Positions 6,565 through 51,559 are shown, counted from the first letter of the stretch. The stretch is DNA of 64,000 nucleotides from Patescibacteria group bacterium (GCA_035457005.1 DATICB010000008.1:1013-65012), one strand, 5' to 3'. Program-made: numbers and translations. Notes: generated by a model not told the origin, from the letters alone.

Positions 6565-7326
6565 TTGCATAATGCTCGTATGCTTACCCTAATTCATGGA
6601 GACGATACCACTGCGAGTAGGAATTATTTTTTCGAAGAAAAACAGCACTATCCCGATGCTTTGCGAATTGAGGGAAGTGCAATTTCTCCAACAGATCTCC
6701 AACAATATATGTCTGGACAAGATTTATTTGGTCAAACAAAAGCCATTTTTATTGATACACTGATTTCCAAAAGGAAATCTCCAAAAGAAATAGCCCAGCT
6801 TATTGAAGTTATCAATCTTTCACCAGATACGCCTATTTTTTTATGGGAAAGCAAAGAGTTGACAAAAAAGCAAATTGAACTATTTAAAAAAATAACAGTG
6901 AAGCTTTTTAAAATTCCCTCAACTATTTTTGCACTTTTAGATGCACTGAAGCCAAACAATGGCCAAGTTTTATTAGATCTTTTCCATAAAACGCTTCTTG
7001 ATAAGGATGCAGAGTTTGTTTTGGTGATGCTTGAAAGACAGATAAGAATTTTGCTAGCGATCTGTGGTGTCATTCCTGCGAAGGCAGGAATCCAAAAAGA
7101 AGATAAAGAACCTGGATCCCTGATCAAGTCAGGGATGACAATAAGTGAGGTATCGCGCCTTGCTACTTGGCAAAAAGGCAAGCTGGAAAAGCAGGCAACA
7201 CTATTTACTGCTCAACAACTGCTTCAATTACATAATGCTTTGTTCCATTTGGAAAAAAATATGAAAACAGGAAATCTTTCTCTGCCGCTTGATAAGTCCA
7301 TTGATTTACTTCTCCTTTCGCTATAA
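6565..7326 (+). CDS. holA: DNA polymerase III delta subunit-like protein (HolA-like) carrying an in-frame repeat-element insertion
   Basis: N-term LTLIHGDDTTASRNYF resembles delta LLLGNDxLL; C-terminal domain-III-like segment; 73-bp palindromic element at 7068-7140 read through in frame. Confidence 0.45.
   Translation: MHNARMLTLIHGDDTTASRNYFFEEKQHYPDALRIEGSAISPTDLQQYMSGQDLFGQTKAIFIDTLISKRKSPKEIAQLIEVINLSPDTPIFLWESKELTKKQIELFKKITVKLFKIPSTIFALLDALKPNNGQVLLDLFHKTLLDKDAEFVLVMLERQIRILLAICGVIPAKAGIQKEDKEPGSLIKSGMTISEVSRLATWQKGKLEKQATLFTAQQLLQLHNALFHLEKNMKTGNLSLPLDKSIDLLLLSL
7068..7140 (-). mobile_element. MITE-like palindromic element, type I (two hairpins, TGTCAT...ATGACA termini), inverted orientation, inside CDS
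   Basis: TGTCATTCCTGCGAAGGCAGGAATCC...CCTGGATCCCTGATCAAGTCAGGGATGACA; both hairpins identical (as reverse complement) to copy at 49155-49218. Confidence 0.8.
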
Positions 7327-7335
7327 ACTGACACC

Positions 7336-8217
7336 ATGTGGTTTTTCTTAGCACTGGGAAGTGCTCTTTTTTATTCTTTCCGGGGGATACTGGAAAAAAG
7401 AATTATTGGAAATGTTGATAAATACATTTTAGGCTTGGCAATTAGGCTTTTTGCAATTCCTTTCTTCTTTGTTCCTTTTTTGTGGAGTCCCAATTCTTTT
7501 ATTTCTCCGCTTCATCTGAGCTGGCAATTTTGGACTGTTGTAGCGATTATTTGTTGTATTACAACGCCCATTGAAACGATTTTGTATTATAAAGCACTTC
7601 AAACAGAAGAAGTAACATTAATTTTACCAATTCTTGCGCTTGGTCCGGCGCTCACTGTATTGTGGGGCTCGTTAACACTTCATGAAATTCCAAGTTTATT
7701 TGGCTTAGTAGGTGTTTTGTCTCTTGTTTTTGGTGTCTATGCGCTCAAAATTGGCCATGCCAAAGAAGGACTTTTAGAACCCATTCATCATTTGCGCAAT
7801 AATCCAGCAATTCGTCTTATGTTTGTGGTTATGCTTTCATCGTCTTTGAGTAGTGTATTGGATAAAGTAGGTGTTGTTCATTCCAATGCATACATGTATG
7901 GATTAATAAATTACTTGGCTGTATCAGTAGCACTTTTTGTTATTGCTTTGTATAAATCCAAACATCATCTTCGCCAACTTATTACTCACAAAACACCATT
8001 TTTGGTTATTGGTACAGTAATTGCAGCGTATACCCTTCTTAATTTCTTAGCACTCCAAACAGGATTTGCTGGATACGTTGGTGCAGTGAGGGCATCGTAT
8101 CTTCTTTTTACCATGATTATGGGAATACTTTTCTTAAAAGAAAAAGACGCCAAGCAAAAAATACTTTCGGGGATATTTATTGTCCTGGGTCTTATTTTAA
8201 TAAAGCTCTTTAGCTAA
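7336..8217 (+). CDS. EamA/DMT-family transporter
   Basis: 293 aa, ~10 TM helices in two repeated halves. Confidence 0.65.
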   Translation: MWFFLALGSALFYSFRGILEKRIIGNVDKYILGLAIRLFAIPFFFVPFLWSPNSFISPLHLSWQFWTVVAIICCITTPIETILYYKALQTEEVTLILPILALGPALTVLWGSLTLHEIPSLFGLVGVLSLVFGVYALKIGHAKEGLLEPIHHLRNNPAIRLMFVVMLSSSLSSVLDKVGVVHSNAYMYGLINYLAVSVALFVIALYKSKHHLRQLITHKTPFLVIGTVIAAYTLLNFLALQTGFAGYVGAVRASYLLFTMIMGILFLKEKDAKQKILSGIFIVLGLILIKLFS

Positions 8218-8975
8218 TTTGTTCTTTTGTGAACATTGTAGAAATAACGAAATACGTAGTCACCATTTTCCTCTTTCTCTGCATGGACGTTAATCAGCAA
8301 ATCCGCATGCTTGTGATGTGGGAAGGTATAAGGATAATATTGCGACTCTAATCGGAAGTCAAAACTTTCCCTAACTTCATCTGCAGTTTTGAGCGCATGT
8401 TTTTCTAAATCTCTCACTACTCTATTTTCACGTCTGACGTCTGTTGGTACATGGAAGTAAATTCGCAAATCGGGATTCTCTACTGGTTGAAAATCGCCTT
8501 CCACAAAAAGAAAATCAAGGTGTCCCGAAATACTGTGTGTATGGTTTTCTAAATCCATTGCTTTTCCTGTTGTCCTATCATATGAAGGCGCTTGAATTGT
8601 TTCCCCTGCTTTTATTTTTGCAAGCAGCGTATTTAAGTGTTGAAAATTTTTAAAATCCAATGGACTAGCACCAGAAGCAATTAGCTTGTCTCTTGTTGTG
8701 CGGTCAAGTAAATTAAAATCTTCTGTAGTGACAGAATCCGCTAATATATTTTTCTTTTTCAACTCATCTATAACATGTTTTACAAATGTTGATTTGCCAC
8801 TTCCCGGTCCACCCGTCACGCTAACAATAGTAGTATTTTTTTGTTTTACATCTATCAGTGTATCAACAAAAAAAGAAATAAAATCAGCATCACTTGAAAA
8901 ATTTTTAAACAAAGATGTTTCTTCTTGCAGAAATTCTTCGATAACTTTTTGGTCGCGCGATTGTGAATTTTGCAC
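8214..8975 (-). CDS. uridine kinase/phosphoribulokinase-family P-loop kinase
   Basis: Walker A VTGGPGSGKST; DLRIYFHVPTDVRRENRVVRD matches Udk/PRK family core. Confidence 0.6.
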   Translation of the reverse strand: MQNSQSRDQKVIEEFLQEETSLFKNFSSDADFISFFVDTLIDVKQKNTTIVSVTGGPGSGKSTFVKHVIDELKKKNILADSVTTEDFNLLDRTTRDKLIASGASPLDFKNFQHLNTLLAKIKAGETIQAPSYDRTTGKAMDLENHTHSISGHLDFLFVEGDFQPVENPDLRIYFHVPTDVRRENRVVRDLEKHALKTADEVRESFDFRLESQYYPYTFPHHKHADLLINVHAEKEENGDYVFRYFYNVHKRTN

Positions 8976-9091
8976 TGCCCTGAAATGATAGCTAATTCTT
9001 TTCAGGAATGCAATTTTTATTACCTGACAAAAACTGGACAGTTTGCCTAGATTTGTTGATTTTTGTTTTCTAATGTTTTAAGATATCTTTT

Positions 9092-10492
9092 ATGCCAGTT
9101 CTGGAAAAGACAATGTTTCGCGAATATGATCTTCGCGGTCGCGAATCGGATACCGAACTTAACGACACCTCCATGTACCACATTGGTAAAGGGTTTGCCA
9201 AATATCTTGTAGATCATGGCATTACCGAATGTGTTGTTGGCCATGATGCAAGAGGAACCTCCGAAGGCTTCCATAATCAAGTGGTGAAAGCAATGGTCGA
9301 GTCAGGAGTTAATGTCCATGATATTGGCACTGTTACTACCCCTTTATCGTACTGGGCTCAGTACTATTTGAAGGTAAAGGGACTTGTTTGTGTAACAGCA
9401 TCTCACAATCCGGTTGGTTGGAACGGGGTTAAGTTGGGAGACGATCTGTCTCATACTCTACTTACCAAAGAACTTCAGGAAGTCTATGACATTATTGTCA
9501 GAGAAGATTATGTAAAAACAGACAAAAAAGGTACAGTTACCAAGCACGAAGTTATTGCCCCATATATTAAAGATCTTCTCTCTAGATCAAAAATTACCAA
9601 AAAGTTTAAGATTTTAGTAAATACAGGTAACGGTACTGCAGGACCTATTTATACAAAAGCACTCAAAGAAGCAGGACAGGATATTGTTGAACATTTTACT
9701 AATGTTGATCCAGCATACCCCAACTACACACCAAACCCAGACGGTACAGCGATGATGGAAGATACAGGCAAACAAACCGTTGCAAATAAATGTGATTTTG
9801 GATTTGCATTTGATGGAGATGGCGACAGATTGGGTATGGTTGATGAAAAGGGTCAAATTGTTTGGCCAGATAGATACATTATTCTTTTGTCTCGCTTAGT
9901 ACTTTCCAAACACCCTGGTGCAAAAATAGTCTTTGATGTAAAAGTATCAGAAGCACTTCCTGAAGATATTGCAGCGCATGGTGGTGTACCAATTATGTGG
10001 AAGACTGGGCATTCATACATTAAAGCAAAACTAGCAGAAGAAAAGGCAGCAATGGCTGGAGAAATGTCTGGACACATTTTTTTTGTTGATGATTTTTATG
10101 GATTTGATGATGGACTTTTTGCTGCACTTAAGTTCTTGGAATACTTATCAACACAAGACAAGCCACTTTCTGAAATTGTTGCCGGGACGCCGTACTATGT
10201 GAGCACACCAACAATTCAGGTACAGGCTGGAGACGAGAAAAAATATATGGTTGTTGACGAGTTGACCAAAGAATTTAAAAAAGAAGGATACAAGGTGATT
10301 GATATTAACGGCGCGAGAGTCTATATGGATGGTGGATGGGGACTTGTGAGAGCATCTTCAAACACTCCAACACTTGTGTTGCGATTCGAAGCAAAGACAA
10401 AAGAACAATTGGATAAAATTATGGATGAATTTCATAAAAAATTAGATACGTATGACTTTGTGAGTAAAAATTGGGATTCTACAGGACACTAA
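9092..10492 (+). CDS. phosphomannomutase/phosphoglucomutase (alpha-D-phosphohexomutase)
   Basis: Active-site TASHNP, metal-binding FDGDGDR, 466 aa. Confidence 0.85.
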   Translation: MPVLEKTMFREYDLRGRESDTELNDTSMYHIGKGFAKYLVDHGITECVVGHDARGTSEGFHNQVVKAMVESGVNVHDIGTVTTPLSYWAQYYLKVKGLVCVTASHNPVGWNGVKLGDDLSHTLLTKELQEVYDIIVREDYVKTDKKGTVTKHEVIAPYIKDLLSRSKITKKFKILVNTGNGTAGPIYTKALKEAGQDIVEHFTNVDPAYPNYTPNPDGTAMMEDTGKQTVANKCDFGFAFDGDGDRLGMVDEKGQIVWPDRYIILLSRLVLSKHPGAKIVFDVKVSEALPEDIAAHGGVPIMWKTGHSYIKAKLAEEKAAMAGEMSGHIFFVDDFYGFDDGLFAALKFLEYLSTQDKPLSEIVAGTPYYVSTPTIQVQAGDEKKYMVVDELTKEFKKEGYKVIDINGARVYMDGGWGLVRASSNTPTLVLRFEAKTKEQLDKIMDEFHKKLDTYDFVSKNWDSTGH

Positions 10493-10500
10493 TAACACAC

Positions 10501-10938
10501 ATGATTGATCTCTCAAAGTTTGATAAATCAAAATTCACAACCGATGGCTATGTTCGCAAGGTTGAAAAGCCTTGGGGATATGAGATCCATTGGGTACCGG
10601 AAGGACTCCCCTACATGGGGAAAGTGCTTCACATAAATGCTGGGAAAAGGCTTTCTTTACAAGTTCATGATATAAAACAAGAATCATATTGGCTGGTAAG
10701 TGGCGAGTGCGATTTAGTCATTGAAAATAGTAAAGGAGACATGGAGACTGTCCATATGCAAAAAGGTCTTGGCTATACGACACATGTTGGGCAAAAGCAT
10801 AGACATCAGGCAGTAACAGATTGCGATGTTGTAGAGGTGTCCATGCCAGAGCAAGGAACAACACTGCGTTTGGAAGATGATTATAAAAGACCAAACGAAA
10901 CACCAGAGCAGCGGAAAAAAGAAAGGGGAGAAATGTGA
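10501..10938 (+). CDS. cupin-domain protein (mannose-6-phosphate isomerase type II-like)
   Basis: Cupin motifs G(X)5HXH-like region LSLQVHD...ESYWLVSGECDLVI; ATG at 10501 just after PMM stop (tool ORF began 10471). Confidence 0.55.
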   Translation: MIDLSKFDKSKFTTDGYVRKVEKPWGYEIHWVPEGLPYMGKVLHINAGKRLSLQVHDIKQESYWLVSGECDLVIENSKGDMETVHMQKGLGYTTHVGQKHRHQAVTDCDVVEVSMPEQGTTLRLEDDYKRPNETPEQRKKERGEM

Positions 10939-11978
10939 TTGATCTAACAAGTTTAGACGAAATTGTAAAAATTGATCCTGCCAATACCTACAAAACAACA
11001 TCGCTTGCAAACGAACAAGCAAAAACAGCGTGGCAACAAGTGCAGGATTTGGACATACAACCGTTGAAGGAAAAAATAACGTCTGTTGTTTTTTGCGGTA
11101 TGGGTGCGTCTATTTATGGTGCACTTGTCCTTAAGGCACTCAAAGGCGAGACCCTCCCCTTTCCTATAGAAGTGGTGAGTGATTATCATATCCCCGCATA
11201 CTGCGACAAGCACACACTTGTTGTTCTCACATCTTATTCCGGAACAACCGAAGAAGTCTTATCGTGTGCAAAAGAGGCAAAAGCAAAAAAGACACAAATA
11301 CTGGTTTTGACAAAAGGTGGTCCACTGGCAGATTTTGCAAGAGAAAATAAAATCCCAGCATACATCTTTGATGGAAAATTAAATCTCTCCTCCACTCCCC
11401 GACTTGGCAATGGCTACAGTGTAATTGGCCTTTTGGGACTTTTCAAAAAACTAGGCCTTGTTGATTTGACCGATAAAGAAATGACTGAAAGCTTTGCTTA
11501 CTTAGATACACAGCTTGAAGCTATTAAAAATGAAGCACTAAAGGAATCGGCTACATTTGAGAATCGAATACCTATTGTTATTGCTGCTGAACATTTAGCT
11601 GGCAACGCACAGATTTTGCGAAATCAGTTTAACGAAACATCAAAAGCATTTTCTGCACTCTATCTAGTGCCTGACCTGAATCATCATCTTATGGAAGGAC
11701 TCCAATTTCCAAAAGAGTCCAAGTTATATTTTTTGATTCTTAATTCTCATTTATATAGTCCAAAGATTAAAAAACGAATGGAGCTGACAGTTGATGTCAT
11801 TAAACAAAATGGACATGATGTTTTAAATTCTTTTCCGCAAGGTAAAACAAAAATAGAAGAATTTTTAGAAACACTTGCCTATGGCAGTTGGTTGACACTT
11901 TTTTTGGGTCTTCGTTATCATCAGGATCCATCAATTAATCCGTGGGTTGACTGGTTTAAGAAAGAATTGGCAAAATAA
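10935..11978 (+). CDS. SIS-domain bifunctional phosphoglucose/phosphomannose isomerase
   Basis: SIS motif VFCGMGASIYGALVL; ~347 aa as archaeal-type PGI/PMI; GTG start overlaps upstream TGA stop (GTGA). Confidence 0.65.
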   Translation: MIDLTSLDEIVKIDPANTYKTTSLANEQAKTAWQQVQDLDIQPLKEKITSVVFCGMGASIYGALVLKALKGETLPFPIEVVSDYHIPAYCDKHTLVVLTSYSGTTEEVLSCAKEAKAKKTQILVLTKGGPLADFARENKIPAYIFDGKLNLSSTPRLGNGYSVIGLLGLFKKLGLVDLTDKEMTESFAYLDTQLEAIKNEALKESATFENRIPIVIAAEHLAGNAQILRNQFNETSKAFSALYLVPDLNHHLMEGLQFPKESKLYFLILNSHLYSPKIKKRMELTVDVIKQNGHDVLNSFPQGKTKIEEFLETLAYGSWLTLFLGLRYHQDPSINPWVDWFKKELAK

Positions 11979-11980
11979 AG

Positions 11981-12193: not shown

Positions 12194-12253
12194 CCAGACG
12201 TAAACTCAACACGATCACTTGAAAGAAGTGATTAAGACTGATACGCTGAGTAT

Positions 12254-14518: not shown

Positions 14519-14523
14519 ACGGT

Positions 14524-17364: not shown

Positions 17365-17601
17365 CTATCTACTTTCTTTCCCTTTTTCTGGTTGTTGTGA
17401 TCGTTGGGGGCCTCTATGCAGTTCTGCTTGCTCCTCTCGTGCTGCACTAACTGCGGGTAATTCAGCTGCTGTTCCTTTAGCTGCGTTTCTTCTTGCTACC
17501 TCTCTTGGATCACCAATACGGGGCAATTGCTTAATCATAATAGTAAGAATTTTACCAAAACAAGAACTTGGAGACAAGATGCTAGATAAAGCGGCGGACA
17601 A
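17365..17601 (-). CDS. hypothetical small ORF overlapping lexA 3' end
   Basis: 78-aa ORF in GC-richer patch; overlaps LexA stop by 20 nt; weak. Confidence 0.15.
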   Translation of the reverse strand: MSAALSSILSPSSCFGKILTIMIKQLPRIGDPREVARRNAAKGTAAELPAVSAAREEQAELHRGPQRSQQPEKGKESR

Positions 17602-18211
17602 GTCCGACCACTCTTCCCTGAATGGTAAGTCGTGTTGGGTAAATTGGCTGCATTGTAGAATTTGCTGGTTTTAATACAACTTGTCCTTGCTCGTTATAAT
17701 ACTTTTTAAGTGTTGCCAAATTGTCATCGACTAGCGCAACCACAATATCGCCATTGTGCACTTCTTTTTCTTTTTCTATCACCACATAGTCGCCATCTAA
17801 AATACCATCTTCAATAAGCGACTCTCCTTTTACCTGCAAAACATATGCTGTTTTTTGTCCAGAAATCATGCTTGCCGAAACTTGAAATGTTGCATTTGGG
17901 TCTGTGTGTGGCTCTAAAGGCTTGCCTGCTGCAATGAATCCCATAAGGGGTAATTCTATCGACACTGTATTGCCCCGCATAGTGCTATTGATTTTCTCAT
18001 CAATAACTTTCAAAACGCGTGCATTGCCTTCTACTTTTTGGATATATCCCTTGTCTACTAATGATGCAATAAGTGAATGCACAGTAGAATTGGCTCTGTG
18101 CCCTGTTGCTTGAGCAATTTCGGTGAGTGTAGGGGAATACCCATACTGATTTTGAAATTGAACAATAAATTCTAAGACTTCTCTTTCTTTTCTGTAGACT
18201 ACTCCTGGCAT
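17582..18211 (-). CDS. lexA: LexA-like repressor (wHTH + S24 peptidase), paralog 1
   Basis: N-term aligns with LexA wHTH (REVLEFIVQF...TLTEIAQATGH), S24 motif GESL...K; start set at MPGVVY (18211) by alignment to LexA; tool ORF extends to 18286. Confidence 0.75.
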   Translation of the reverse strand: MPGVVYRKEREVLEFIVQFQNQYGYSPTLTEIAQATGHRANSTVHSLIASLVDKGYIQKVEGNARVLKVIDEKINSTMRGNTVSIELPLMGFIAAGKPLEPHTDPNATFQVSASMISGQKTAYVLQVKGESLIEDGILDGDYVVIEKEKEVHNGDIVVALVDDNLATLKKYYNEQGQVVLKPANSTMQPIYPTRLTIQGRVVGLVRRFI

Positions 18212-18221
18212 AGTATTATAA

Positions 18222-18234
18222 TCGAATATTTCGA
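18222..18234. promoter_or_regulatory. candidate LexA-1 operator: dyad TCGAA-N3-TTCGA
   Basis: TCGAATATTTCGA with perfect 5-bp arms, 11-23 nt upstream of lexA start, between TTGACA and TATAAT hexamers on the lexA strand; resembles Cheo box CGAAC-N4-GTTCG. Confidence 0.4.
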
Positions 18235-18312
18235 GTATTTTTGTCAACCGATCGTATGTTATCTTTTTATAAGCAAACATGATCAACTATGTGTTTTATG
18301 GTAAAATACTAT

Positions 18313-18339
18313 TGTCATTGCGAACGAAGTGAAGCAATC
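18313..18339 (+). repeat. palindromic element type II fragment (TGTCATTGCGA...GCAATC hairpin)
   Basis: TGTCATTGCGAACGAAGTGAAGCAATC; same head as full element at 46785-46860. Confidence 0.6.
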
Positions 18340-18344
18340 TCCAC

Positions 18345-18414
18345 TGTCATCCCGCACTTGATGCGGGATCCAGTTCCTTATTTATATAGATTCCTGATCA
18401 AGTCAGGAATGACA
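18345..18414 (+). mobile_element. MITE-like palindromic element type I in uvrB 5' region
   Basis: TGTCATCCCGCACTTGATGCGGGATCCAG...ATTCCTGATCAAGTCAGGAATGACA; two hairpins with compensatory stem changes relative to other copies; ends 5 nt before uvrB ATG. Confidence 0.8.
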
Positions 18415-18418
18415 TTAA

Positions 18419-20425
18419 ATGTATATGAAATTTCAACTCACATCAAAATTTAAGCCGTCCGGCGATCAGCCAGAGGCAATTAAAAAATTAACACAGGGCA
18501 TTGAAAAAAATGATAAACACCAAGTGCTCCTTGGTGTCACTGGTAGTGGCAAAACCTACACTATGGCCAACGTAATTCAAAATGTTCAAAAGCCAACACT
18601 CATTATTTCCCACAACAAAACACTAGCAGGTCAACTGTATCAGGAATTTAGAGAGTTTTTCCCTAACAACAGTGTCAATTATTTTGTGAGTTACTACGAT
18701 TACTATCAGCCAGAGGCGTACGTCCCAACAACAGATACGTACATTGAAAAAGAGGCAGAAATTAATGAAGAAATCGATAAATTACGACTTTCTGCAACAG
18801 CGAATCTTTTGACTCGAAAAGATGTCATTGTCATTGCCTCGGTAAGCTGCATCTACAATCTTGGCTCGCCTGTTGAGTATGGCAAATTTGTCTTAGAAAT
18901 GGCAAAAGGAATGAAAATCGAAAGCAGAGATATTTTGCTTCGACTCACAGATTTACAATATGAGCGAAATGAGTATGGATTTAAAAGGGGGTCATTTAGA
19001 GTGCGAGGAGAAAATATAGATGTTTTCCCAGCGTACATGGACCATGGTCTTCGGATTGATATACAAAATGGGAAAATAATTGGTCTTTCAGAGTTTGATC
19101 CACTAACTGGCGAAACAGTACAAATACTCAAAAATACCATTGTCTACCCTGCCAAACACTACATGACAGACCCTGCTTCTTACGGTGGTGTTTTCCCTCA
19201 GATTAAAAATGACATGGAAAAACGAGTAAAAGAGCTGACAAGCATGAATAAATTGGTTGAAGCACAAAGAATTAAACAACGGGTAAGTTACGACTTGGAA
19301 ATGATTAATGAAATTGGTTATGTGAATGGTATAGAAAACTACTCGAGATATTTTGATGGACGTGAGCCAGGCCAGCCACCATATACGTTGATTGATTATC
19401 TACAGGCATGCTCCAAAGACTGGTTGCTTCTTGTTGATGAATCGCACATTACTCTTCCTCAAATTCGAGGCATGTACAATGGTGATAGGGCGCGAAAAGA
19501 AACACTGATTGAATACGGTTTCCGCTTGCCATCTGCACTTGATAATAGACCGTTAAAATTTGAGGAATTTATGGGACGGGTCAATCAGGCAGTGTATGTG
19601 TCAGCAACCCCAGACGAATATGAATTATCTCTTTCCGGACAAGACAACATTGCCGAACAACTAATTCGTCCAACTGGCATTGTGGACCCGCAGGTAACAG
19701 TAAAACCAACAGAGGGGCAAATTACTGACCTTATTGCAGAAATTCAAAAAAGAGTTGCAAAAAAGCAGCGAGTCTTAGTAACAACCCTTACAAAAAAAAT
19801 GGCAGAAGAACTGTCTAATTATTTAGAGGAAGGAGGCATAAAAGTGGCATATCTTCACTCTGATATCGAGACAATTAATAGACAAGACATTTTAGATAAT
19901 TTACGAAAAGGTGAATACGACGTATTAGTTGGTATTAATTTATTGCGTGAGGGTATTGATTTGCCAGAAGTTACCTTGGTTGCAATTTTGGATGCAGACA
20001 AAGAAGGATTTCTGAGAAGTAAAACGTCACTCATTCAGACCATGGGAAGAGCTGCGCGAAATATAGACTCAGAAGTTATTTTATATGCAGACACCATGAC
20101 TGGGTCAATGAATGAGGCAATAAGAGAAGTAGAAAGACGAAGAGAGGCACAACTTGCGTACAATAAAAAGCATAATATTACTCCGACAACTATCGAAAAA
20201 GCAATTCGCGAAAGATTGTATGAAGAAGAGGAAGAAGAAGCAACCCATAGGTCCCGGCCAATTGATTTAGTTTTGGAATTAGCAGACAAAGATGTGCTTC
20301 TGCCAGATGAACGGGAGAAGGTTATTGGCAGGCTCAGACAAGAAATGAAAACAGCTGCAAAGAATTTAGATTTTGAAACAGCAGCACTCCTTCGAGATAG
20401 AATAAAACAATTGCAAAACAATTAG
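18419..20425 (+). CDS. uvrB: excinuclease ABC subunit B
   Basis: GDQPEAIKKL, helicase motifs, C-terminal UvrB/UvrC interaction domain; 668 aa. Confidence 0.9.
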   Translation: MYMKFQLTSKFKPSGDQPEAIKKLTQGIEKNDKHQVLLGVTGSGKTYTMANVIQNVQKPTLIISHNKTLAGQLYQEFREFFPNNSVNYFVSYYDYYQPEAYVPTTDTYIEKEAEINEEIDKLRLSATANLLTRKDVIVIASVSCIYNLGSPVEYGKFVLEMAKGMKIESRDILLRLTDLQYERNEYGFKRGSFRVRGENIDVFPAYMDHGLRIDIQNGKIIGLSEFDPLTGETVQILKNTIVYPAKHYMTDPASYGGVFPQIKNDMEKRVKELTSMNKLVEAQRIKQRVSYDLEMINEIGYVNGIENYSRYFDGREPGQPPYTLIDYLQACSKDWLLLVDESHITLPQIRGMYNGDRARKETLIEYGFRLPSALDNRPLKFEEFMGRVNQAVYVSATPDEYELSLSGQDNIAEQLIRPTGIVDPQVTVKPTEGQITDLIAEIQKRVAKKQRVLVTTLTKKMAEELSNYLEEGGIKVAYLHSDIETINRQDILDNLRKGEYDVLVGINLLREGIDLPEVTLVAILDADKEGFLRSKTSLIQTMGRAARNIDSEVILYADTMTGSMNEAIREVERRREAQLAYNKKHNITPTTIEKAIRERLYEEEEEEATHRSRPIDLVLELADKDVLLPDEREKVIGRLRQEMKTAAKNLDFETAALLRDRIKQLQNN

Positions 20426-30881: not shown

Positions 30882-30933
30882 TGTCATCCTGAACGAAGTG
30901 AAGGATATATTCTTCGTTTTACTCAGAATGACA
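30882..30933 (+). mobile_element. MITE-like palindromic element type III (TGTCATCCTGAACGAAG...CAGAATGACA)
   Basis: 52-bp imperfect palindrome with TGTCAT/ATGACA termini ending 6 nt before murT ATG; shares 17-mer TTCGTTTTACTCAGAAT with 44310 region. Confidence 0.75.
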
Positions 30934-44074: not shown

Positions 44075-44284
<210 letters not shown>

Positions 44285-44309
44285 GAAGTGCTTGGAGTTT
44301 ATATTCCAA

Positions 44310-44345
44310 GTAAAACGAGAAACAGTCGTTTTTCGTTTTACTCAG
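44310..44345 (+). repeat. hairpin GTAAAACGA...TCGTTTTAC + ACTCAGAAT tail (fragment of type III element)
   Basis: 9-bp perfect inverted repeat; 17-mer TTCGTTTTACTCAGAAT identical to 30912-30928; ends ~10 nt before atpF ATG. Confidence 0.55.
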
Positions 44346-44355
44346 AATTATAAAT

Positions 44356-44853: not shown

Positions 44854-44874
44854 GTTATAATTTTAAACTTATTG

Positions 44875-44931
44875 TGTCATCCTGAGCAAAGCGAAGGATC
44901 TTATTGAGATTCCGGGTAAACCAGAATGACA
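44875..44931 (+). mobile_element. MITE-like palindromic element type III in atpF-atpH spacer
   Basis: TGTCATCCTGAGCAAAGCGAAGGATC...CCAGAATGACA, followed by two more ATGACA repeats the last of which supplies the atpH ATG. Confidence 0.75.
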
Positions 44932-44939
44932 CATGACAT

Positions 44940-45272
44940 ATGACAAAAAAAACAATAACAGAATTAGTGAAGGCAAGTTATACAAAAGAGATACTGAATA
45001 GCAAAAAAGTTGAAAGGATTGTCAAGCTTTTGTCGCGTTCTGATTTAAAACAATATATTCGAGGACTGAAGCTTTTTGAAAAATCTCGCACAATTTCTCT
45101 TGTTTTACCAGACAAAAAATTTTATAATAAGACATTGTTGGGAAATATAAAAAAACAAGTGAGACTTATTGAGGACAAATCATTACTTTTAGGAGCAAAA
45201 ATTATTGATAATGATATGGTCTACGATATGAGTCTTAAGAATAATTTGGATACATTTTTACAAAGTCTATGA
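44940..45272 (+). CDS. atpH: F0F1 ATP synthase delta subunit (short form)
   Basis: C-terminal [28 protein letters not shown] matches delta C-terminus; only 110 aa; operon position between b and alpha. Confidence 0.5.
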
Positions 45273-46783
45273 ATTCCGATGACATTATTAAAAAGCTAGA
45301 AAACAAACTTTCCTCTTTAGAGGTTTCTGGAAAAGCACAAAATGTTGGTGTTGTTGAAACAATTGGCGACAATGTTGTTGTTGCAAGCGGTTTATCTAAA
45401 GCACAAATGGGCGAGCAAGTTGTTTTCCAAGATGGCACCCCTGGTTTAATCCTTAACCTCGACGAAGATAGCGTGTCTATTGTTTTACTTGACAGATCGG
45501 AAAAATTAAAAGAAGGAGACACAGTCAAAACAACCGGACAGTTGCTTACTATTAAAGCACACGAAGATTTACTTGGTAGAGTGATTAATCCTGTTGGTAA
45601 GCCAATTGATGGCAAATCAGAATTAAAACGAGGCAAAGACATGCCACTTGAAAGAATTGCTGCAGGCGTTATTGACAGACAACCAGTCGATACACCACTC
45701 AAAACAGGCGTTAAAGCCATTGATTCACTTATCCCAATTGGACGAGGTCAAAGAGAATTAATTATTGGAGACAGAGGATTGGGAAAAACAGCAGTTGCCA
45801 TTGACACCATTATTAATCAGAAAAATGCTGCAAAAGAAGGCGGCAAAAGAGTTTTGTGCGTGTATGTTGCTATTGGTCAAAAGCAATCAACAGTTGCACA
45901 AGTTGTTGAAAAATTAAAAGAACACGACAGCATGGACTACACCATTGTTGTTAATGCAGGCGCATCAGATCCAGCGTCTTTGCAGTATTTAGCACCGTAC
46001 GCAGGCGTAGCAATTGCTGAATACTTTATGGAAAAAGGAGAAGATGTCTTAATTGTCTATGACGATTTAACCAAACACGCATGGGCATGGAGAAATTTGT
46101 CACTCGTGTTAAAGCGTCCAGCTGGAAGAGAAGCATACCCAGGAGATGTTTTTTACCTTCATTCAAGACTTCTTGAACGTGCAGTAAGACTTTCAGACAA
46201 ACTTGGTGGCGGATCAATTACTGCACTTCCTGTGATTGAAACACAAGCAAATGATATTTCTGCATACATTCCGACCAATGTTATTTCCATTACTGATGGC
46301 CAGATTTTCTTGGTTTCTGATCTTTTCAACTCAGGTATTCGCCCAGCAGTTGATGTTGGAAATTCAGTATCAAGAGTTGGAGGCGCAGCGCAGACTGGTG
46401 CTATGAAGTCAGTGTCTGGAAGAATCAAGCTAGAATTGGCACAGTATCGAGAATTAGCAGTATTCGCACAATTCGGAAGCGAGCTGGATGCAGCAACACT
46501 GGCTCAGCTGGAAAGAGGAAAACGGCTTACAGAAATGCTCAAACAGCCACAATACAACCCACTTCCCGAAGCTTTGGAGGTCTTGTCTATTTGGGTTGTT
46601 ACAAATGGCTATACAGACGATGTAAAAGTGGAAGATATTCTTAAATTTGAAAAAGAATATCATGCCTACGTAAAAACTCATGACAAAAAATTATTGGAAA
46701 GACTTTCTTCTGGTAAAAAAGTAGACGACGAAACAGCGGAACAATTGAAAAAGATTACCGTTGCGTTTAAGAAGACATTTTAA
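45269..46783 (+). CDS. atpA: F0F1 ATP synthase alpha subunit
   Basis: Walker A GDRGLGKT, 504 aa. Confidence 0.95.
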
Positions 46784-46784
46784 T

Positions 46785-46860
46785 TGTCATTGCGAGGAGC
46801 GAAGCGACCCGGCAATCTTGTTATGTAGATAAGATTGCTTCGTATTCGTTCGCAATGACA
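46785..46860 (+). mobile_element. MITE-like palindromic element type II (full length) in atpA-atpG spacer
   Basis: TGTCATTGCGAGGAGCGAAGCGACCCGG CAATCTT-gttatgtagat-AAGATTG cttcgtattcgt TCGCAATGACA; 11-bp terminal inverted repeat plus internal 7-bp hairpin. Confidence 0.8.
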
Positions 46861-46874
46861 TTTTATTATAAGAT

Positions 46875-49144
<2,270 letters not shown>

Positions 49145-49154
49145 ACGCTCTCCT

Positions 49155-49218
49155 TGTCATCCCTGACTTGATCAGGGATCCAGGAATATAATAGATTCCT
49201 GCCTTCGCAGGAATGACA
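49155..49218 (+). mobile_element. MITE-like palindromic element type I in atpD-atpC spacer
   Basis: TGTCATCCCTGACTTGATCAGGGATCCAG gaatataatag ATTCCTGCCTTCGCAGGAATGACA; ends 8 nt before atpC ATG. Confidence 0.85.
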
Positions 49219-49225
49219 AAATACT

Positions 49226-49633
49226 ATGCCATTACAACTCACCGTCGTAACTCCAGAAAAACAACTTCTCTCAGAAGAAGTAGATGAAATCATTGTCCCA
49301 ACAACCAGTGGCGAGCTGACCATCTTACCCCAACACGCCGCGCTTTTAGCCCAGCTTGTCCCAGGTGAGTTGGTTATTAAAAAAGGTAACAAAACAGATC
49401 ACTTAGTCGTAGTTGGCGGGTTTTTGGAAGTTGGCAAGAATACCGTGAGTATTTTGGCTGACTATGCAGTCCATGGCAAAGATATCTCTGAAGCTCAGGC
49501 TCAACAGGCAAAAGATAGAGCAGAAAAAGCAATGAAAGAGAAAAAATCAGATGTTGATTTTGCAACTGCCGAGGCAGAATTTAGAAGAGCAATTTTAGAG
49601 CTAAAAGTTGCGAAGCGTCAAAAAGGAATCTAG
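49226..49633 (+). CDS. atpC: F0F1 ATP synthase epsilon subunit
   Basis: 135 aa, beta-sandwich N-domain (LQLTVVTPEKQLLSEEVDEIIVPTTSGELTILPQHA) + helical C-term. Confidence 0.85.
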   Translation: MPLQLTVVTPEKQLLSEEVDEIIVPTTSGELTILPQHAALLAQLVPGELVIKKGNKTDHLVVVGGFLEVGKNTVSILADYAVHGKDISEAQAQQAKDRAEKAMKEKKSDVDFATAEAEFRRAILELKVAKRQKGI

Positions 49634-49637
49634 CGAC

Positions 49638-50051
49638 TTATCTTCTGCGGCTATAGCGTCCAGTCACTATATTTGCCACAAAATGTTCTCCCGCATTGTA
49701 CGCAAGTTTTGTGAGAAGAAAGGTCGCGGTAGTAGCTAAAACAGGGTTTTCTGTAACCCATTGCATATCTGCTCCAGAGGATGATCCGAGAAAATCTTGG
49801 AAATGATTACTCGTATCTAGCACGCCGTGTGGCGCCATAATAACAGCGTAATCAATAGGAACCGCCAAAGCCAAACCCATTGAACTCGATAGATTCTCAT
49901 TGGCAACACTATTAACAACTACCCTTGTGGAAAGAGGAAGCAATAGATTAAATAAACCGGCTAGCCCACCCAGCGATGCAGAACCGCTCTCCGTACGTAC
50001 GACACGTGCTGCCTCAACCCCAGATGCTTGTCCTACTAGTTCTCCCAACAT
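49638..50051 (-). CDS. hypothetical protein (GC-richer)
   Basis: 137-aa ORF convergent with atp operon; no confident family. Confidence 0.3.
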   Translation of the reverse strand: MLGELVGQASGVEAARVVRTESGSASLGGLAGLFNLLLPLSTRVVVNSVANENLSSSMGLALAVPIDYAVIMAPHGVLDTSNHFQDFLGSSSGADMQWVTENPVLATTATFLLTKLAYNAGEHFVANIVTGRYSRRR

Positions 50052-50169
50052 AATTATAATGCATTATAGGAGCACTGAGGTTTTTCTCAATATATATCAA
50101 ATGTGAATAGACAATCATTCACTTGGGCAATACTATTCTTCTTTGTCTATTATTTAGCCTGTGATAAAT

Positions 50170-50592
50170 CTAGATATTTTCAAAACAATTTGTGATTGTC
50201 TTTTTCATATAGTCTGTCAACTCAAATTTCTCTACATCTTGCTCCGCAACCCACTGATATGCTTGATGTTCGTGAGAAAGAATTATCTCTTGCTCTTTAT
50301 TTACAAGTGTACAAAGAAAGGATATTTCTACGCGGTGAATTTTTTCATCTTTATTTTCCATAAAATAATCATCCACATGAAGCGGTTTCTCAACGATTAC
50401 TTCCAACCCCACTTCTTCTCGTAGCTCTCGCTCAAGTGCTTTTATTGGATGTTCACCAAAGTCTGTGCCACCACCCGGCAACTCCCACAATCCTGGCAAA
50501 AAATCATCGGTATTTGATCTTTTAACAAGCAACACTTCTTTTTTATCGTTTAAGATAAATCCACCCACAACTGACTGTTGGTACTGTTGCAT
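50170..50592 (-). CDS. NUDIX hydrolase
   Basis: Nudix box GGGTDFGEHPIKALERELREEVGL. Confidence 0.8.
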   Translation of the reverse strand: MQQYQQSVVGGFILNDKKEVLLVKRSNTDDFLPGLWELPGGGTDFGEHPIKALERELREEVGLEVIVEKPLHVDDYFMENKDEKIHRVEISFLCTLVNKEQEIILSHEHQAYQWVAEQDVEKFELTDYMKKTITNCFENI

Positions 50593-50651
50593 ACAGTGAG
50601 TATACCAAACTCACTTTTGCATGCAAATAAATAAACCATTAGTATTATTTT

Positions 50652-50891
50652 GTGAAGAAAATAATTACCGAAGTCCTTGGCTGGTACGGGACAATTGCCA
50701 TTGTTGGCGCATATGCATTGGTAAGTTTCTCTCTTATTAAATCTTCTAGTCTTTTGTATCAACTGCTCAATATAACTGGGTCACTTGGGATTGTTGCTAT
50801 TTCACTCAATAAAAAGGCTTATCAACCTGCTGTTTTGAATATTATTTGGGCTGTTATCGCAACAATTGCTATTTTTAGTCTTCTTCGATAA
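50652..50891 (+). CDS. small hypothetical membrane protein (2-3 TM)
   Basis: 79 aa, hydrophobic helices. Confidence 0.35.
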   Translation: MKKIITEVLGWYGTIAIVGAYALVSFSLIKSSSLLYQLLNITGSLGIVAISLNKKAYQPAVLNIIWAVIATIAIFSLLR

Positions 50892-50895
50892 ATTC

Positions 50896-50924
50896 TTGAT
50901 TTTTTTCTGCAAAAAAGATATACT
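50896..50924 (+). promoter_or_regulatory. promoter-like hexamers TTGATT-17-TATACT, 9 nt upstream of ATG 50934
   Basis: -35 and -10 hexamer pair with 17-nt spacing; no detectable SD. Confidence 0.4.
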
Positions 50925-50933
50925 GTCCACTCT

Positions 50934-51239
50934 ATGAAAAGACCATTGGAATCAAATCAACTTTCATTGCTTGCAGCTCCAACCAGAAGAGAAACGCCCA
51001 CAATTCAACCTGTTGTTTTTACCATCAATGGTGACAGAATGCATCCCGGTGATCGTTGGCCAGTAACAATTGACGGAACAACATATGAATTTTATTCTGA
51101 CCCTCATAATGCTGGGAATGATTCGTACGGCCCAGTCGGTGGATGGATTAAGACTGGATATTATCTAAGAGCTACGCATCCAAATTCAAGAAGACTTATT
51201 TTACCAAAAGGCGTAACTTGGGAGGACAGAACTTCGTAA
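50934..51239 (+). CDS. hypothetical protein (GC-rich cassette gene 1)
   Basis: 101 aa; GC-richer than flanks; no family. Confidence 0.35.
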   Translation: MKRPLESNQLSLLAAPTRRETPTIQPVVFTINGDRMHPGDRWPVTIDGTTYEFYSDPHNAGNDSYGPVGGWIKTGYYLRATHPNSRRLILPKGVTWEDRTS

Positions 51240-51246
51240 AATAGTT

Positions 51247-51462
51247 ATGGCAACAGATAGACAACCGTGTCCGAATGCAACATGTCCTCAGGGGAAGGTT
51301 CCAGGAATGGATGGCATACCTTATTGCGCATACGAGGCATACAGAATAAATCCAGCTCACCCCAGAGATTTTGAAACAGCAGGACAAACAATAGGGAGAC
51401 ACTGTCCTTTTGCTGCTGATGTAAGAGGTAGAGGGCAAAGAAACCCACCAAGAACATCTTAG
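51247..51462 (+). CDS. hypothetical small Cys-containing protein (GC-rich cassette gene 2)
   Basis: 71 aa with CPNATCP...C...C spacing suggestive of metal-binding knuckle. Confidence 0.3.
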   Translation: MATDRQPCPNATCPQGKVPGMDGIPYCAYEAYRINPAHPRDFETAGQTIGRHCPFAADVRGRGQRNPPRTS

Positions 51463-51486
51463 TCATTTTTGATATCTTCTGACATA

Positions 51487-51515
51487 TTGACTCTTTAGTA
51501 CGATCGTACTAATCT
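51487..51515 (+). promoter_or_regulatory. LexA-2 promoter-like hexamers with embedded 16-bp perfect palindrome TAGTACGATCGTACTA (AGTAC-N4-GTACT box)
   Basis: TTGACT(51487-92)-17-TAATCT(51510-15); palindrome 51496-51511 sits in the spacer; matches the RGTAC-N4-GTWCB box class. Confidence 0.5.
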
Positions 51516-51524
51516 TGATACAGA

Positions 51525-51559
51525 TGTCATCCTGAGCGAATAAAGTGAGTCGAAGGATC
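51525..51559 (+). repeat. truncated type III palindromic element in lexA-2 5' UTR
   Basis: TGTCATCCTGAGCGAAtaaagtgagtCGAAGGATC; head identical to 44875 copy, tail missing. Confidence 0.6.

What the first reader, a model, noticed from the sequence alone, without database searches (positions are those of the whole stretch)
7068..51559. A superfamily of MITE/REP-like palindromic elements with TGTCAT...ATGACA termini, in three subtypes and at least nine copies
There are three subtypes:
- type I (two hairpins, ~65-73 bp) at 7068-7140, 18345-18414 and 49155-49218;
- type II at 18313-18339 (fragment) and 46785-46860 (full 76 bp, 11-bp terminal inverted repeat);
- type III at 30882-30933, 44875-44931, 51525-51559 (truncated) and 44310-44345 (fragment).
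Compensatory stem changes between copies (ATCCCGCA..TGCGGGAT vs ATCCCTGA..TCAGGGAT; TTCCTGC..GCAGGAA vs TTCCTGA..TCAGGAA) suggest selection on the secondary structure rather than on the sequence. This many copies in 64 kb of a small, dense genome is striking.
Basis: seen in the sequence. Interest (0 to 1): 0.75.

Follow-up and report, generated by a model that had tools for sequence, protein, structure and literature searches.

The report
TGTC-tagged REP hairpin repeats, CPR genome
This window from a candidate-phyla-radiation bacterium carries about 15 short hairpin-forming DNA repeats, one of them in frame inside a replication gene, and most belong to a repeat superfamily already described across bacteria (CGTC/TGTC-tagged REPs, the binding sites of Ssn single-strand DNA nucleases), so the feature is real but largely known.

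Summary
All nine claimed copies are at the stated coordinates: 11 strict TGTCAT-hairpin modules against 0.28±0.51 in shuffles.

The basic unit is one module: TGTC tag, a stem opening A-T/T-A, a loop, and an ATC(C/T)A tail. Modules pair tag-outward into six dimers, with two singletons and a remnant.

Type I matches published families. It fits the CGTC/TGTC-tagged REPs of Di Nocera 2013 (Neisseria dRS3, Rickettsia RPE-6) and the NTS/SRM motif of Chenal 2025. That motif flanks, and is cut as ssDNA by, the 94-aa GIY-YIG nuclease SsnA. I recovered this link before finding the papers: 58 of 80 protein-selected loci carry the module beside the gene.

Types II and III form one second family: a 5-bp stem, tandem G·A and a GC-GNA-GC minihairpin. 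Covariation supports it, it is equally widespread, and I found no description of it.

Newer details:
- The host is a Patescibacteria MAG.
- All three types occupy the same holA linker in different relatives, through independent insertions.
- Dimers can mix the two families.

No Ssn or transposase gene lies in the window, so the mechanism in this organism is inferred.

Verdict: new member of a known kind, moderate interest.

The parts
7068..7140 (.). Type I (family A) tag-outward heterodimer lying in frame inside holA (DNA polymerase III delta, ORF 6580-7326). Modules are 7068-7094 (+) TGTC-ATTCCTGC-GAAG-GCAGGAAT-CCA and 7113-7140 (-) TGTC-ATCCCTGA-CTTGA-TCAGGGAT-CCA. It encodes GVIPAKAGIQKEDKEPGSLIKSGMT.
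   Evidence: (DNA fold -15 kcal/mol, z -5.0)
18313..18339 (+). Family B (type II) single module, TGTC-ATTGC-GA-AC-GAA-GT-GAA-GCAAT-C, in the divergent lexA<>uvrB spacer.
18345..18414 (.). Type I heterodimer. Modules are 18345-18372 (+) and 18387-18414 (-). It ends 4 nt before the uvrB start. The left module is the only hairpin in the window that fits the published SRM search sequence.
   Evidence: (z -5.7)
30882..30933 (.). Family B (type III) dimer. Modules are 30882-30907 (+) and 30908-30933 (-). It fills the htpX-like (M48) | murT spacer, with gaps of 11 nt and 5 nt to the flanking genes.
44310..44348 (+). Remnant of a family B right arm in the atpE|atpF spacer. TTCGTTTTACTCAGAAT at 44332-44348 is identical to 30913-30929. 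The TGTC/GACA tag is lost.
44875..44931 (.). Hybrid dimer in the atpF | ORF44940 spacer. The family B module is 44875-44900 (+). The family A-like module is 44906-44931 (-), TGTC-ATTCTGG-TTTAC-CCGGAAT-CTC, with one stem mismatch.
46785..46860 (.). Family B (type II) dimer. Modules are 46785-46817 (+, enlarged loop) and 46833-46860 (-). It starts 1 nt after the atpA stop and ends 14 nt before atpG. It can also fold as one long hairpin.
   Evidence: (-22 kcal/mol, z -7.2)
49155..49218 (.). Type I heterodimer in the atpD|atpC spacer. Modules are 49155-49182 (+) and 49192-49218 (-). Both hairpins are identical to those of 7068-7140, in the opposite orientation and with a different spacer.
   Evidence: I1, I10; z -4.9
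51525..51559 (+). Family B (type III) single module with an enlarged loop. It lies 12 nt upstream of the likely ATG (51572) of a second LexA-like S24 peptidase gene.

Best explanation
**What the elements are.** They are members of the CGTC/TGTC-tagged branch of repetitive extragenic palindromes. Each unit is one tagged hairpin: TGTC, then a stem that always opens A-T, T-A, then a short loop, then an ATC(C/T)A tail. Units mostly sit as tag-outward inverted pairs.

**Type I.** Type I equals the published families CGTC-1 (4-nt loop) and CGTC-2 (5-nt loop). These include Neisseria dRS3/NTS and Rickettsia RPE-6. Across bacteria this hairpin brackets the gene for a 94-aa stand-alone GIY-YIG nuclease, SsnA, in the layout hairpin-ssn-hairpin.

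**How it most likely works.** The published biochemistry (PMC11893778) shows four things:
- The tag-plus-hairpin is read only when the DNA is single-stranded.
- It is bound in a strand-specific way.
- The strand is cut just upstream of the motif.
- dsDNA and RNA are not substrates.

The gene-less dimers seen in this window would then be the non-autonomous form of that cassette.

**Why they sit where they do.** In a genome that is about 95% coding they survive only where they do no harm. They fill almost the whole of tiny intergenic spacers, and one occupies a permissive linker of holA, where it is translated.

**Types II and III.** These are one second family with the same tag, first stem pairs and tail. 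The body differs: a 5-bp stem, tandem G·A, and a GC-GNA-GC minihairpin. It probably serves the same kind of reader.

**Shown versus inferred.**
- Shown here: identity of form, copy excess, structural covariation, the hairpin-ssn association, pan-bacterial and phage distribution, and independent in-frame insertions in holA.
For: **Copy excess.** 11 modules against 0.28 in shuffles.

**Form.** The hairpins match every published defining feature of CGTC REPs. The holA peptide VIPAKAGIQ equals the R. conorii CGTC-1 peptide VIPAKAGI in Additional file 3 of PMC3733652.

**Forward association with the nuclease gene.** Twelve GIY-YIG ORFs were found in the 240 hairpin-selected loci. Eight lie within 153 nt of a module, mostly bracketed by inverted copies.

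**Reciprocal association.** 80 metagenome loci were chosen by protein alone.
- A correctly oriented perfect-stem module lies upstream in 45 and downstream in 45.
- It lies on both sides in 32 and on either side in 58.
- Many of the remaining 22 show variant modules by eye.
- The published figures are 71% and 42%.

**The protein.** It is a GIY-YIG domain (Pfam E 3e-17). The nearest solved structures are UPF0213 proteins.

**Covariation, type I.** 84 sequences were picked by tag and tail only. 93% of cells pair. 71 cells have changes on both sides, against 14.6 +/- 3.2 in shuffles (0 of 500 reach it). Slid controls pair at most 52%. G·T wobble makes up 10-11 of about 56 non-Watson-Crick cells, roughly the 2-in-12 share chance would give. 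That fits selection on DNA rather than RNA.

**Covariation, type III.** The inner pair is G-C 131, A-T 19, mismatched 3 (p 5e-21). An outer pair is C-G 62, T-A 91, mismatched 0.

**Distribution.** Hits span nearly all bacterial phyla, including 12 CPR MAGs among 120 sampled genome hits and a Rickettsia endosymbiont, and also viral contigs.

**Interchangeability of the types.** There is a hybrid dimer at 44875-44931. Type I, II and III dimers occupy the same holA linker in relatives, at junctions differing by 1-7 codons and in different reading frames.
Against: **No partner gene seen here.** No Ssn or GIY-YIG gene is found in the 64-kb window, in six holA loci of related CPR genomes, or in 12 CPR genome loci. 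Only a non-Ssn GIY-YIG gene in L225 and a fragment in L130 turned up. The rest of the source genome could not be fetched.

**Published search sequence.** Only 1 of the 6 type I hairpins fits the SRM degenerate sequence. The cause is the low-GC CCTG stem.

**Family B has no linked gene.**
- No Ssn-type gene appears in the 208 family-B-selected viral loci.
- No recurrent gene lies between or beside family B modules.
- Only one Ssn locus, L516, shows a type II-like dimer.

**Weak predicted folds.** Nearest-neighbour DNA folding gives single family B modules no better energy than shuffles. The support for their structure is covariation only.

**Transposition unproven.** How any CGTC REP moves has never been demonstrated. 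PMC3733652 says they 'apparently lack a dedicated transposase'.
Confidence: 0.75

Rival explanations
1. The elements act mainly as RNA structures. Being co-transcribed inside operons, the hairpins would stabilise upstream mRNA segments, mark processing sites, or tune translation of the next cistron.
For: Seven of nine lie between same-direction genes. Four of those are inside the atp operon, and several end 4-14 nt before the next start codon with no room for a separate leader. Di Nocera et al. argue that many REPs are transcribed and act as RNA. This reading does not exclude the DNA-level one.
Against: - SsnA does not bind RNA or dsDNA.
- G·U wobble pairs are not enriched among the exceptions to pairing.
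- Dimers place a tagged hairpin on both strands, and copies occur in either orientation relative to transcription.
- One copy is inside a coding sequence, and others sit in a divergent promoter region.
- Terminator-like sites are not enriched: 8 against 7.5 expected. Only one element hairpin scores, and on the antisense strand.
- No Rfam family matches.
Confidence: 0.15
2. They are classical MITEs. On this view they are deletion derivatives of an insertion sequence, moved by a DDE-type transposase that recognises the TGTCAT...ATGACA terminal inverted repeats.
For: The overall appearance fits: 52-76 bp, inverted termini, many copies.
Against: - No target-site duplication appears at any of the six dimers.
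- The unit is a single self-complementary hairpin, which also occurs alone (18313, 51525, and most copies elsewhere).
- No transposase domain appears in any of the 70 ORFs of the window.
- The only gene found bracketed by these termini anywhere is a 94-aa GIY-YIG nuclease.
Confidence: 0.03
3. They are REPINs mobilised by a RAYT (an IS200/IS605-type tyrosine transposase), like the GTAG-tagged REPs of enterobacteria and pseudomonads.
For: The architecture is the same: an inverted pair of tagged hairpins, an unpaired 5' tetranucleotide, and dimers dominant over singletons.
Against: - The tag is TGTC/CGTC, not GTAG.
- No Y1/HUH transposase is in the window.
- PMC3733652 reports that no RAYT gene is flanked by CGTC repeats.
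- ORF clustering around 120 genome loci gave GIY-YIG and no Y1 family.
Confidence: 0.03
4. The copies are chance palindromes, or pieces of one duplicated intergenic segment.
For: None beyond the fact that two dimers share identical hairpins.
Against: - There is a 40-fold excess over shuffles.
- Flanks are unrelated and spacers differ.
- The same modules occur in hundreds of unrelated contigs.
Confidence: 0.01

Closest known systems
CGTC-tagged REPs, families CGTC-1 and CGTC-2 (Di Nocera, De Gregorio & Rocco 2013, PMC3733652); these include Neisseria dRS3 and Rickettsia RPE-6/RPE-4
   Same: - The tag is CGTC, 'changed to TGTC in many repeats'.
- The stem is 8 bp and opens A-T, T-A.
- The loop is 4 or 5 nt and the tail is CCA.
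- Inverted dimers predominate and are often heterodimers.
- Copies lie next to the 3' ends of genes in same-direction spacers.
- Intragenic copies favour replication and repair genes.
- The encoded peptide VIPAKAGI is identical.
   Different: - The host is a Patescibacteria (CPR) MAG. The paper lists five phyla, mostly Alphaproteobacteria.
- The stems here are a low-GC CCTG variant.
- The dimers are very compact (spacers of 9-18 nt).
- Types II and III do not fit any of the four published CGTC families (stem 8-9 bp, loop 4-5 nt).
NTS / Ssn-related motifs (SRM) with the SsnA GIY-YIG ssDNA nuclease (Chenal et al. 2025, PMC11893778)
   Same: - The type I consensus, TGTCATTCCYGCGNAGGCRGGAATCCA, is the NTS (CGTCATTCCCGCGMAVGCGGGAATCYRG) with T for C at the first base.
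- I recovered the same hairpin-ssn-hairpin cassette and the same association frequencies independently.
   Different: - No ssn gene could be shown for this genome.
- 5 of the 6 hairpins fall outside the published degenerate search sequence.
- NTS are rarely intragenic in Neisseria (2%), whereas here one of nine elements is in frame in holA.
- CPR is not mentioned in the paper.
- A role in natural transformation is untested here.
Rickettsia palindromic elements (RPE; Ogata et al. 2000, 2002, from my own knowledge and as cited in PMC3733652)
   Same: Palindromic repeats are inserted in frame into conserved protein-coding genes, adding a peptide segment without destroying the protein. RPE-6 and RPE-4 are CGTC REPs.
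   Different: - The classic RPE-1 is 100-150 bp and unrelated in sequence.
- The host here is not Rickettsia.
- The same linker of one gene has been hit independently by different module families in different lineages.
GTAG-tagged REPs / REPINs with RAYT transposases
   Same: A tagged single hairpin is the unit, inverted dimers are common, copies are extragenic, and a small HUH-free or HUH nuclease gene is bracketed by its own repeats.
   Different: The tag, the stem rules and the associated enzyme all differ. The enzyme here is GIY-YIG rather than a Y1 HUH transposase. No RAYT is linked to these repeats.

Membership tests
CGTC-tagged REP superfamily (PMC3733652) | Unpaired 5' tetranucleotide CGTC (or TGTC/CCTC) directly before the stem | tested here: met
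   All 14 modules start TGTC immediately before the stem.
CGTC-tagged REP superfamily (PMC3733652) | Stem of 8-9 bp whose first two pairs are A-T and T-A; loop of 4-5 nt | tested here: met
   Met for the six perfect type I hairpins: 8-bp stems with GAAG or CTTGA loops. The hairpin at 44906-44931 meets it with one mismatch. The A-T/T-A start is met by all 14 modules. Family B (types II/III) does NOT meet the stem and loop rule; it has a 5-bp Watson-Crick stem and an 11-20-nt interior.
CGTC-tagged REP superfamily (PMC3733652) | Short unpaired tail, consensus CCA | tested here: met
   Type I tails are CCA (4) or CTA (2). Family B tails are C/CT(C/T).
CGTC-tagged REP superfamily (PMC3733652) | Predominantly inverted dimers, often heterodimers; high copy number; extragenic, close to gene ends | tested here: met
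   There are six dimers and two singletons. All three type I dimers are heterodimers (loop 4 with loop 5, or different stems). Eight of nine elements lie in spacers, 1-21 nt from the upstream gene. Genome-wide copy number could not be tested because only 64 kb is available.
Ssn-related motif (SRM) / Ssn system (PMC11893778) | Match to HGTCWYN(0-2)YYVSBRHN(0-5)WNVSBRGN(0-2)RNCYNB | tested here: inconclusive
   There is 1 match (18345-18373) against 0.1 in shuffles. The other five type I hairpins fail only at the stem position where this genome has T (CCTG) instead of C/G. No family B module matches.
Ssn-related motif (SRM) / Ssn system (PMC11893778) | A cd10448-type single-domain GIY-YIG gene (ssn) in the same genome, typically bracketed by the motif | tested here: inconclusive
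   None is in the window. The rest of the MAG is not retrievable. The bracketing itself was confirmed in other genomes.
Ssn-related motif (SRM) / Ssn system (PMC11893778) | Strand-specific binding and cleavage of the motif as ssDNA, not dsDNA or RNA | not testable with these tools
   This needs purified protein and oligonucleotides. The published result is for Neisseria and Wolbachia homologues only.
MITE | Target-site duplication flanking terminal inverted repeats; cognate transposase-bearing IS | tested here: not met
   The 10-nt flanks of the six dimers share no direct repeat. No transposase domain is found in the 70 ORFs.
REPIN / RAYT | GTAG tag and an associated Y1 (HUH) transposase gene flanked by the repeats | tested here: not met
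   The tag is TGTC. No Y1_Tnp domain is in the window. ORF clustering around 120 genome loci gave no Y1 family.
Rickettsia palindromic elements (in-frame coding palindromes) | Insertion inside a conserved ORF that keeps the reading frame and the flanking domains, and is absent from orthologues | tested here: met
   The holA ORF is intact, and the C-terminal domain is still detected after the insert. The modal linker in 72 homologues is 9 aa against 28 aa here. An empty orthologous site is seen in L533.

The most novel reading that the evidence does not exclude
Types II and III together form an undescribed second branch of the TGTC-tagged repeat superfamily, with the body TGTC-AT-NNN-GA-NN-GNA-NN-GA-NNN-AT-C. 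That is a GNA minihairpin stacked on tandem G·A pairs.

The branch is as widespread in bacteria and phages as the Ssn motif. It is interchangeable with that motif in dimers and at a recurrent insertion site in holA. It would be read by an Ssn-like ssDNA-specific protein that has not yet been identified.

In CPR bacteria, which are thought to depend on DNA uptake, the two repeat families would mark or gate single-stranded DNA during uptake, replication or repair.
Probability: 0.2. Interest if true: 0.6.

Novelty: new member of a known kind. Interest (0 to 1): 0.35.

Why it matters
**For annotation.** These repeats explain odd peptide inserts such as VIPAKAGIQ, VIASKAKQS and HPE..RFAQND. They also explain spurious small ORFs in CPR and many other genomes. 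The published SRM search sequence misses low-GC variants like those here.

**For biology.** The result extends the Ssn-motif/CGTC-REP superfamily to the candidate phyla radiation. It shows that one linker of DNA polymerase III delta has been colonised repeatedly and independently by different module families. It also points to a second, apparently undescribed hairpin family with the hallmarks of an ssDNA structure (GNA loop, sheared G·A pairs, strong covariation) whose protein partner is unknown.

If that partner is an Ssn-like nuclease, it would widen the set of programmable ssDNA-specific nucleases. None of this changes the main point: the kind of element is already known.

Tried and rejected
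**Fetching the source genome.** Exact-protein look-ups failed for the holA product with two different starts and for atpD. No genome-wide census was possible.

**Rfam.** The gathering-threshold scan found only five tRNAs.

**Literature searches that found nothing useful.**
- Raw sequence strings returned no relevant paper.
- 'palindromic elements' with CPR returned nothing.
- An RPE query was swamped by retinal pigment epithelium papers.
- A GIY-YIG plus palindromic query returned only organelle papers.
- The query combining GIY-YIG, UPF0213, YhbQ and COG2827 returned one unrelated paper.
- The relevant papers appeared only.

**A partner gene for family B.**
- The Ssn HMM found nothing in 208 family-B loci.
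- ORFs between inverted family B pairs were not recurrent.
- ORFs within 200 nt of modules clustered only into phage structural proteins.

**Ssn in CPR.**
- The HMM on 18 CPR loci gave only a non-Ssn GIY-YIG gene (L225) and a fragment (L130).
- A profile search of the protein database saturated, with 7995 of 8000 scored candidates at E <= 1e-10. No CPR name appeared among the best 120, which settles nothing.

**Other rejected ideas.**
- Intrinsic terminators: not enriched.
- A transposase in the window: none.
- Resemblance of the stem to type I-E CRISPR repeats and to tRNA T-arms: considered from memory and dropped, because the copies are dispersed, not arrayed, and the resemblance is limited to a GC-rich stem.
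- My 'family A-like' regular expression was faulty, and its counts are not used.


Full report
**Observation.**
- Six hairpins next to TGTC have perfect 8-bp stems.
- A strict definition was applied: TGTCAT, a perfect stem of at least 5 bp starting at the AT, a loop of at most 20 nt, then C. It finds 11 modules against 0.28 +/- 0.51 in 200 dinucleotide-preserving shuffles.
- The quoted compensatory changes are real.
- Flanks are unrelated, spacers differ, and no target-site duplications are seen.
- The element at 7068-7140 is the reverse complement of 49155-49218. Both hairpins are identical but the spacer differs. The copies are therefore independent.

**Anatomy.** The repeated unit is not the 52-76-bp 'element' but a single tagged hairpin. 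It consists of TGTC, a stem that always opens A-T, T-A, a loop, and a tail ATC(C/T)(A). The window holds 14 such modules, arranged as six tag-outward inverted dimers and two singletons, plus one tagless remnant.
- Type I hairpins have 8-bp stems and GAAG or CTTGA loops.
- Types II and III share the core GA-NN-GNA-NN-GA(A) inside a 5-bp stem. They differ only in three stem pairs (TGC/GCA versus CCT/AGG or TCT/AGA). I therefore treat them as one family B.
- 44875-44931 is a hybrid dimer of a family B module and a type I-like module.
- As single-stranded DNA, the type I dimers fold as two separate hairpins (-15 kcal/mol, z about -5). The type II dimer folds as one long hairpin (-22 kcal/mol, z -7.2). 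Single family B modules get no support from nearest-neighbour energies.

**Host and context.** The holA product is 100% identical to an NCBI protein from a 'Patescibacteria group bacterium' MAG on a 72-kb contig. Named relatives are Levybacteria.
- By a crude ORF tiling the window is about 95% coding, and 8 of 9 elements lie in the remainder.
- They nearly fill their spacers. Four sit in the atp operon: atpE|atpF, atpF|ORF44940, atpA|atpG and atpD|atpC.
- One sits between an M48 peptidase gene and murT.
- Two sit in the divergent lexA<>uvrB spacer.
- One sits 12 nt upstream of a second LexA-like gene.
- None of the 70 ORFs has a transposase, recombinase or GIY-YIG domain.

**The copy inside holA.** The dimer at 7068-7140 lies in frame in DNA polymerase III delta and encodes GVIPAKAGIQKEDKEPGSLIKSGMT. 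The C-terminal domain is still recognised after it.
- In 72 homologues with both anchor motifs, the modal linker between RILLAL and ISEVSR is 9 aa.
- Eighteen have 17 aa or more. At least 13 of those carry peptides recognisable as translated modules of type I, II or III.
- DNA of six relatives confirms this: a type I dimer (L529), a decayed type I (L530), type II dimers read in two different frames (L531, L534), a type III dimer (L532) and an empty site (L533).
- The junctions differ by 1-7 codons.
- These are therefore independent insertions into one permissive linker, and the three types are interchangeable there.

**Distribution.**
My arithmetic gives a chance expectation of roughly 1 and 9 hits respectively.
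- The genome hits span nearly all bacterial phyla. They include 12 CPR MAGs, a Rickettsia endosymbiont and one Nanoarchaeota MAG.
- Type III and type II patterns gave at least 120 and 90 viral stretches.
- In all three sets, inverted dimers of 55-145 bp are the common arrangement.
- Family B modules also occur in genome loci that were selected by type I. There were 13 hits in 839 kb, against about 0.05 expected. The hosts include Nitrospirales, Dehalococcoidia, Ignavibacteria, Terriglobia, Pirellulales and others.

**Associated gene.** I clustered the ORFs of the 120 genome loci. Apart from generic families, this gave a cluster of roughly 95-aa GIY-YIG proteins.
- An HMM of these finds 12 in the 240 type I loci. 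Eight lie within 153 nt of a module, and most of those are bracketed by inverted modules.
- The typical layout is TGTCATTCCCGCGNAGGCGGGAATCCA, then 18-50 nt, the gene, 5-45 nt, and TGGATTCCCGC..GCGGGAATGACA.
- For the reciprocal test, 80 metagenome loci were chosen by protein similarity alone. A correctly oriented perfect-stem module lies upstream in 45, downstream in 45, on both sides in 32 and on either side in 58. Background density is 0.30 per kb.
- Many of the other 22 show variant modules by eye.
- The protein is a bare GIY-YIG domain. Its nearest solved structures are UPF0213 proteins. It has no NCBIfam model.

**Structure is under selection.**
- For type I, 84 loop-4 modules were taken from loci not selected for that hairpin, and chosen only by tag, first AT pair and tail. 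They pair in 93% of cells. There are 71 cells with changes on both sides, against 14.6 +/- 3.2 in shuffles (0 of 500). Slid controls pair at most 52%.
- G·T wobble accounts for 10-11 of about 56 non-Watson-Crick cells. That is what chance gives, and it fits a DNA rather than an RNA constraint.
- For type III, the search pattern allowed all combinations. The minihairpin pair is G-C 131, A-T 19, mismatched 3 (Fisher p 5e-21). An outer pair is C-G 62, T-A 91, mismatched 0.
- Copies are not phylogenetically independent, so these p-values overstate the evidence. The pattern is nonetheless unambiguous.
- The window's own family B copies show the same compensations (GAGC..GCGA, GAAC..GTGA, GAGT..ACGA).

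**What is already known.** Only after these analyses did a literature search find two papers that cover most of this.

Di Nocera et al. 2013 (PMC3733652) define CGTC-tagged REPs as follows:
- The tag is CGTC, 'changed to TGTC' in many repeats.
- Stems are 8-9 bp and 'almost invariably' start with complementary A-T residues.
- Loops are 4-5 nt and tails are CCA.
- The repeats are mainly dimers, often heterodimers.
- They equal Neisseria dRS3 and Rickettsia RPE-6/RPE-4.
- Intragenic copies are concentrated in replication and repair genes.

Their Additional file 3 lists VIPAKAGI as the peptide of R. conorii CGTC-1 copies. They found no dedicated transposase.

Chenal et al. 2025 (PMC11893778) define the NTS, CGTCATTCCCGCGMAVGCGGGAATCYRG.
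- 71% of ssnA homologues have such a motif nearby, and 42% have it on both sides.
- SsnA binds the motif only as ssDNA, strand-specifically, and cuts upstream.
- SsnA lowers transformation by NTS-flanked DNA.
- The authors note that NTS-ssnA-NTS looks like an insertion sequence.

Neither paper mentions CPR, nor does a 2025 REP survey. Only one of the six type I hairpins here fits their degenerate SRM sequence, because of the CCTG stem.

**What may be new.**
- The host clade.
- The repeated independent colonisation of one holA linker by different module families.
- Hybrid dimers.
- Family B. It fits neither the four CGTC families nor the SRM sequence, and its core sequences occur in no paper text I could search. 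Figures are not searchable, and Rickettsia RPE consensus sequences could not be read, so prior description cannot be excluded.

I found no gene linked to family B. One Ssn locus, L516, carries a type II-like dimer.

**Mechanism and its limits.** The best-supported reading is that these are DNA-level hairpins read in single-stranded DNA by an Ssn-type nuclease, and that the dimers are the gene-less form of the hairpin-ssn-hairpin cassette. For this organism that is inference.
- No ssn gene is in the window or in the CPR loci I could examine.
- The rest of the genome could not be retrieved.
- A database-wide profile search saturated and was uninformative for CPR.

An RNA-level role in the atp operon is not excluded. 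However, the DNA-like covariation pattern, the copies on both strands and the lack of terminator signal do not favour it. Classical MITE and RAYT/REPIN readings fail their defining tests.

**Verdict.** The kind of element is already described, so this is a new member of a known kind, with a modest set of new details. Interest 0.35.

Noticed in passing
window 1612-1682: An imperfect inverted repeat lies between tRNA-Lys and tRNA-Glu: CATTCACTCAGGGTAAAC ... GTTTACACTGAGCGAAGCGAATG. Its right arm carries the family B core GAGCGAAGCGA but no TGTC tag. It is probably a decayed tenth element.
   Followed up: partly
window 17582-20425, 51525-52138 and 6580-7326: The elements sit next to or inside DNA-damage and replication genes. 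These are the divergent lexA<>uvrB spacer, the leader of a second LexA-like S24 gene, and holA. A related contig (L531, 18355-18385) also has a tagged hairpin beside its lexA. This echoes the published bias of intragenic REPs for replication and repair genes.
   Followed up: partly
window 44926-44945: The right end of the hybrid dimer is followed by two more ATGACA hexamers (ATGACAcATGACAtATGACA). The third supplies the start codon of ORF 44940-45272. That ORF sits at the atpH position but has no Pfam match.
   Followed up: no
L225:1800-2300 (Candidatus Moraniibacteriota MAG): An 81-aa GIY-YIG gene of the UPF0213 kind, not the Ssn kind, lies between a partial copy and a full copy of the same tRNA gene. 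It looks like a nuclease gene inserted into a tRNA gene, with duplication of its 5' half.
   Followed up: no
L191:6601-8000 (Flavobacteriaceae bacterium GF1, complete genome): At least five type I modules recur with a 300-bp period, in a tandem array directly beside an Ssn-type GIY-YIG gene.
   Followed up: no
L024:880-1310, L074:3610-4040, L089:5250-5730 (IMG/VR contigs): The hairpin-ssn-hairpin cassette sits between a gene whose C-terminal sequence looks like a phage major capsid protein (my reading, not tested) and the next gene. Its position is that of a free-standing homing-endonuclease gene. Other viral contigs (L098, L300, L274, L394, L031) carry tagged hairpins between many successive genes.
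   Followed up: partly
window 7068-7094, 7113-7140, 18387-18414, 49155-49182, 49192-49218: The published SRM degenerate search sequence misses these five clear type I hairpins, because their stems read CCTG rather than CC[CG][CG]. Censuses based on it will undercount low-GC genomes.
   Followed up: yes
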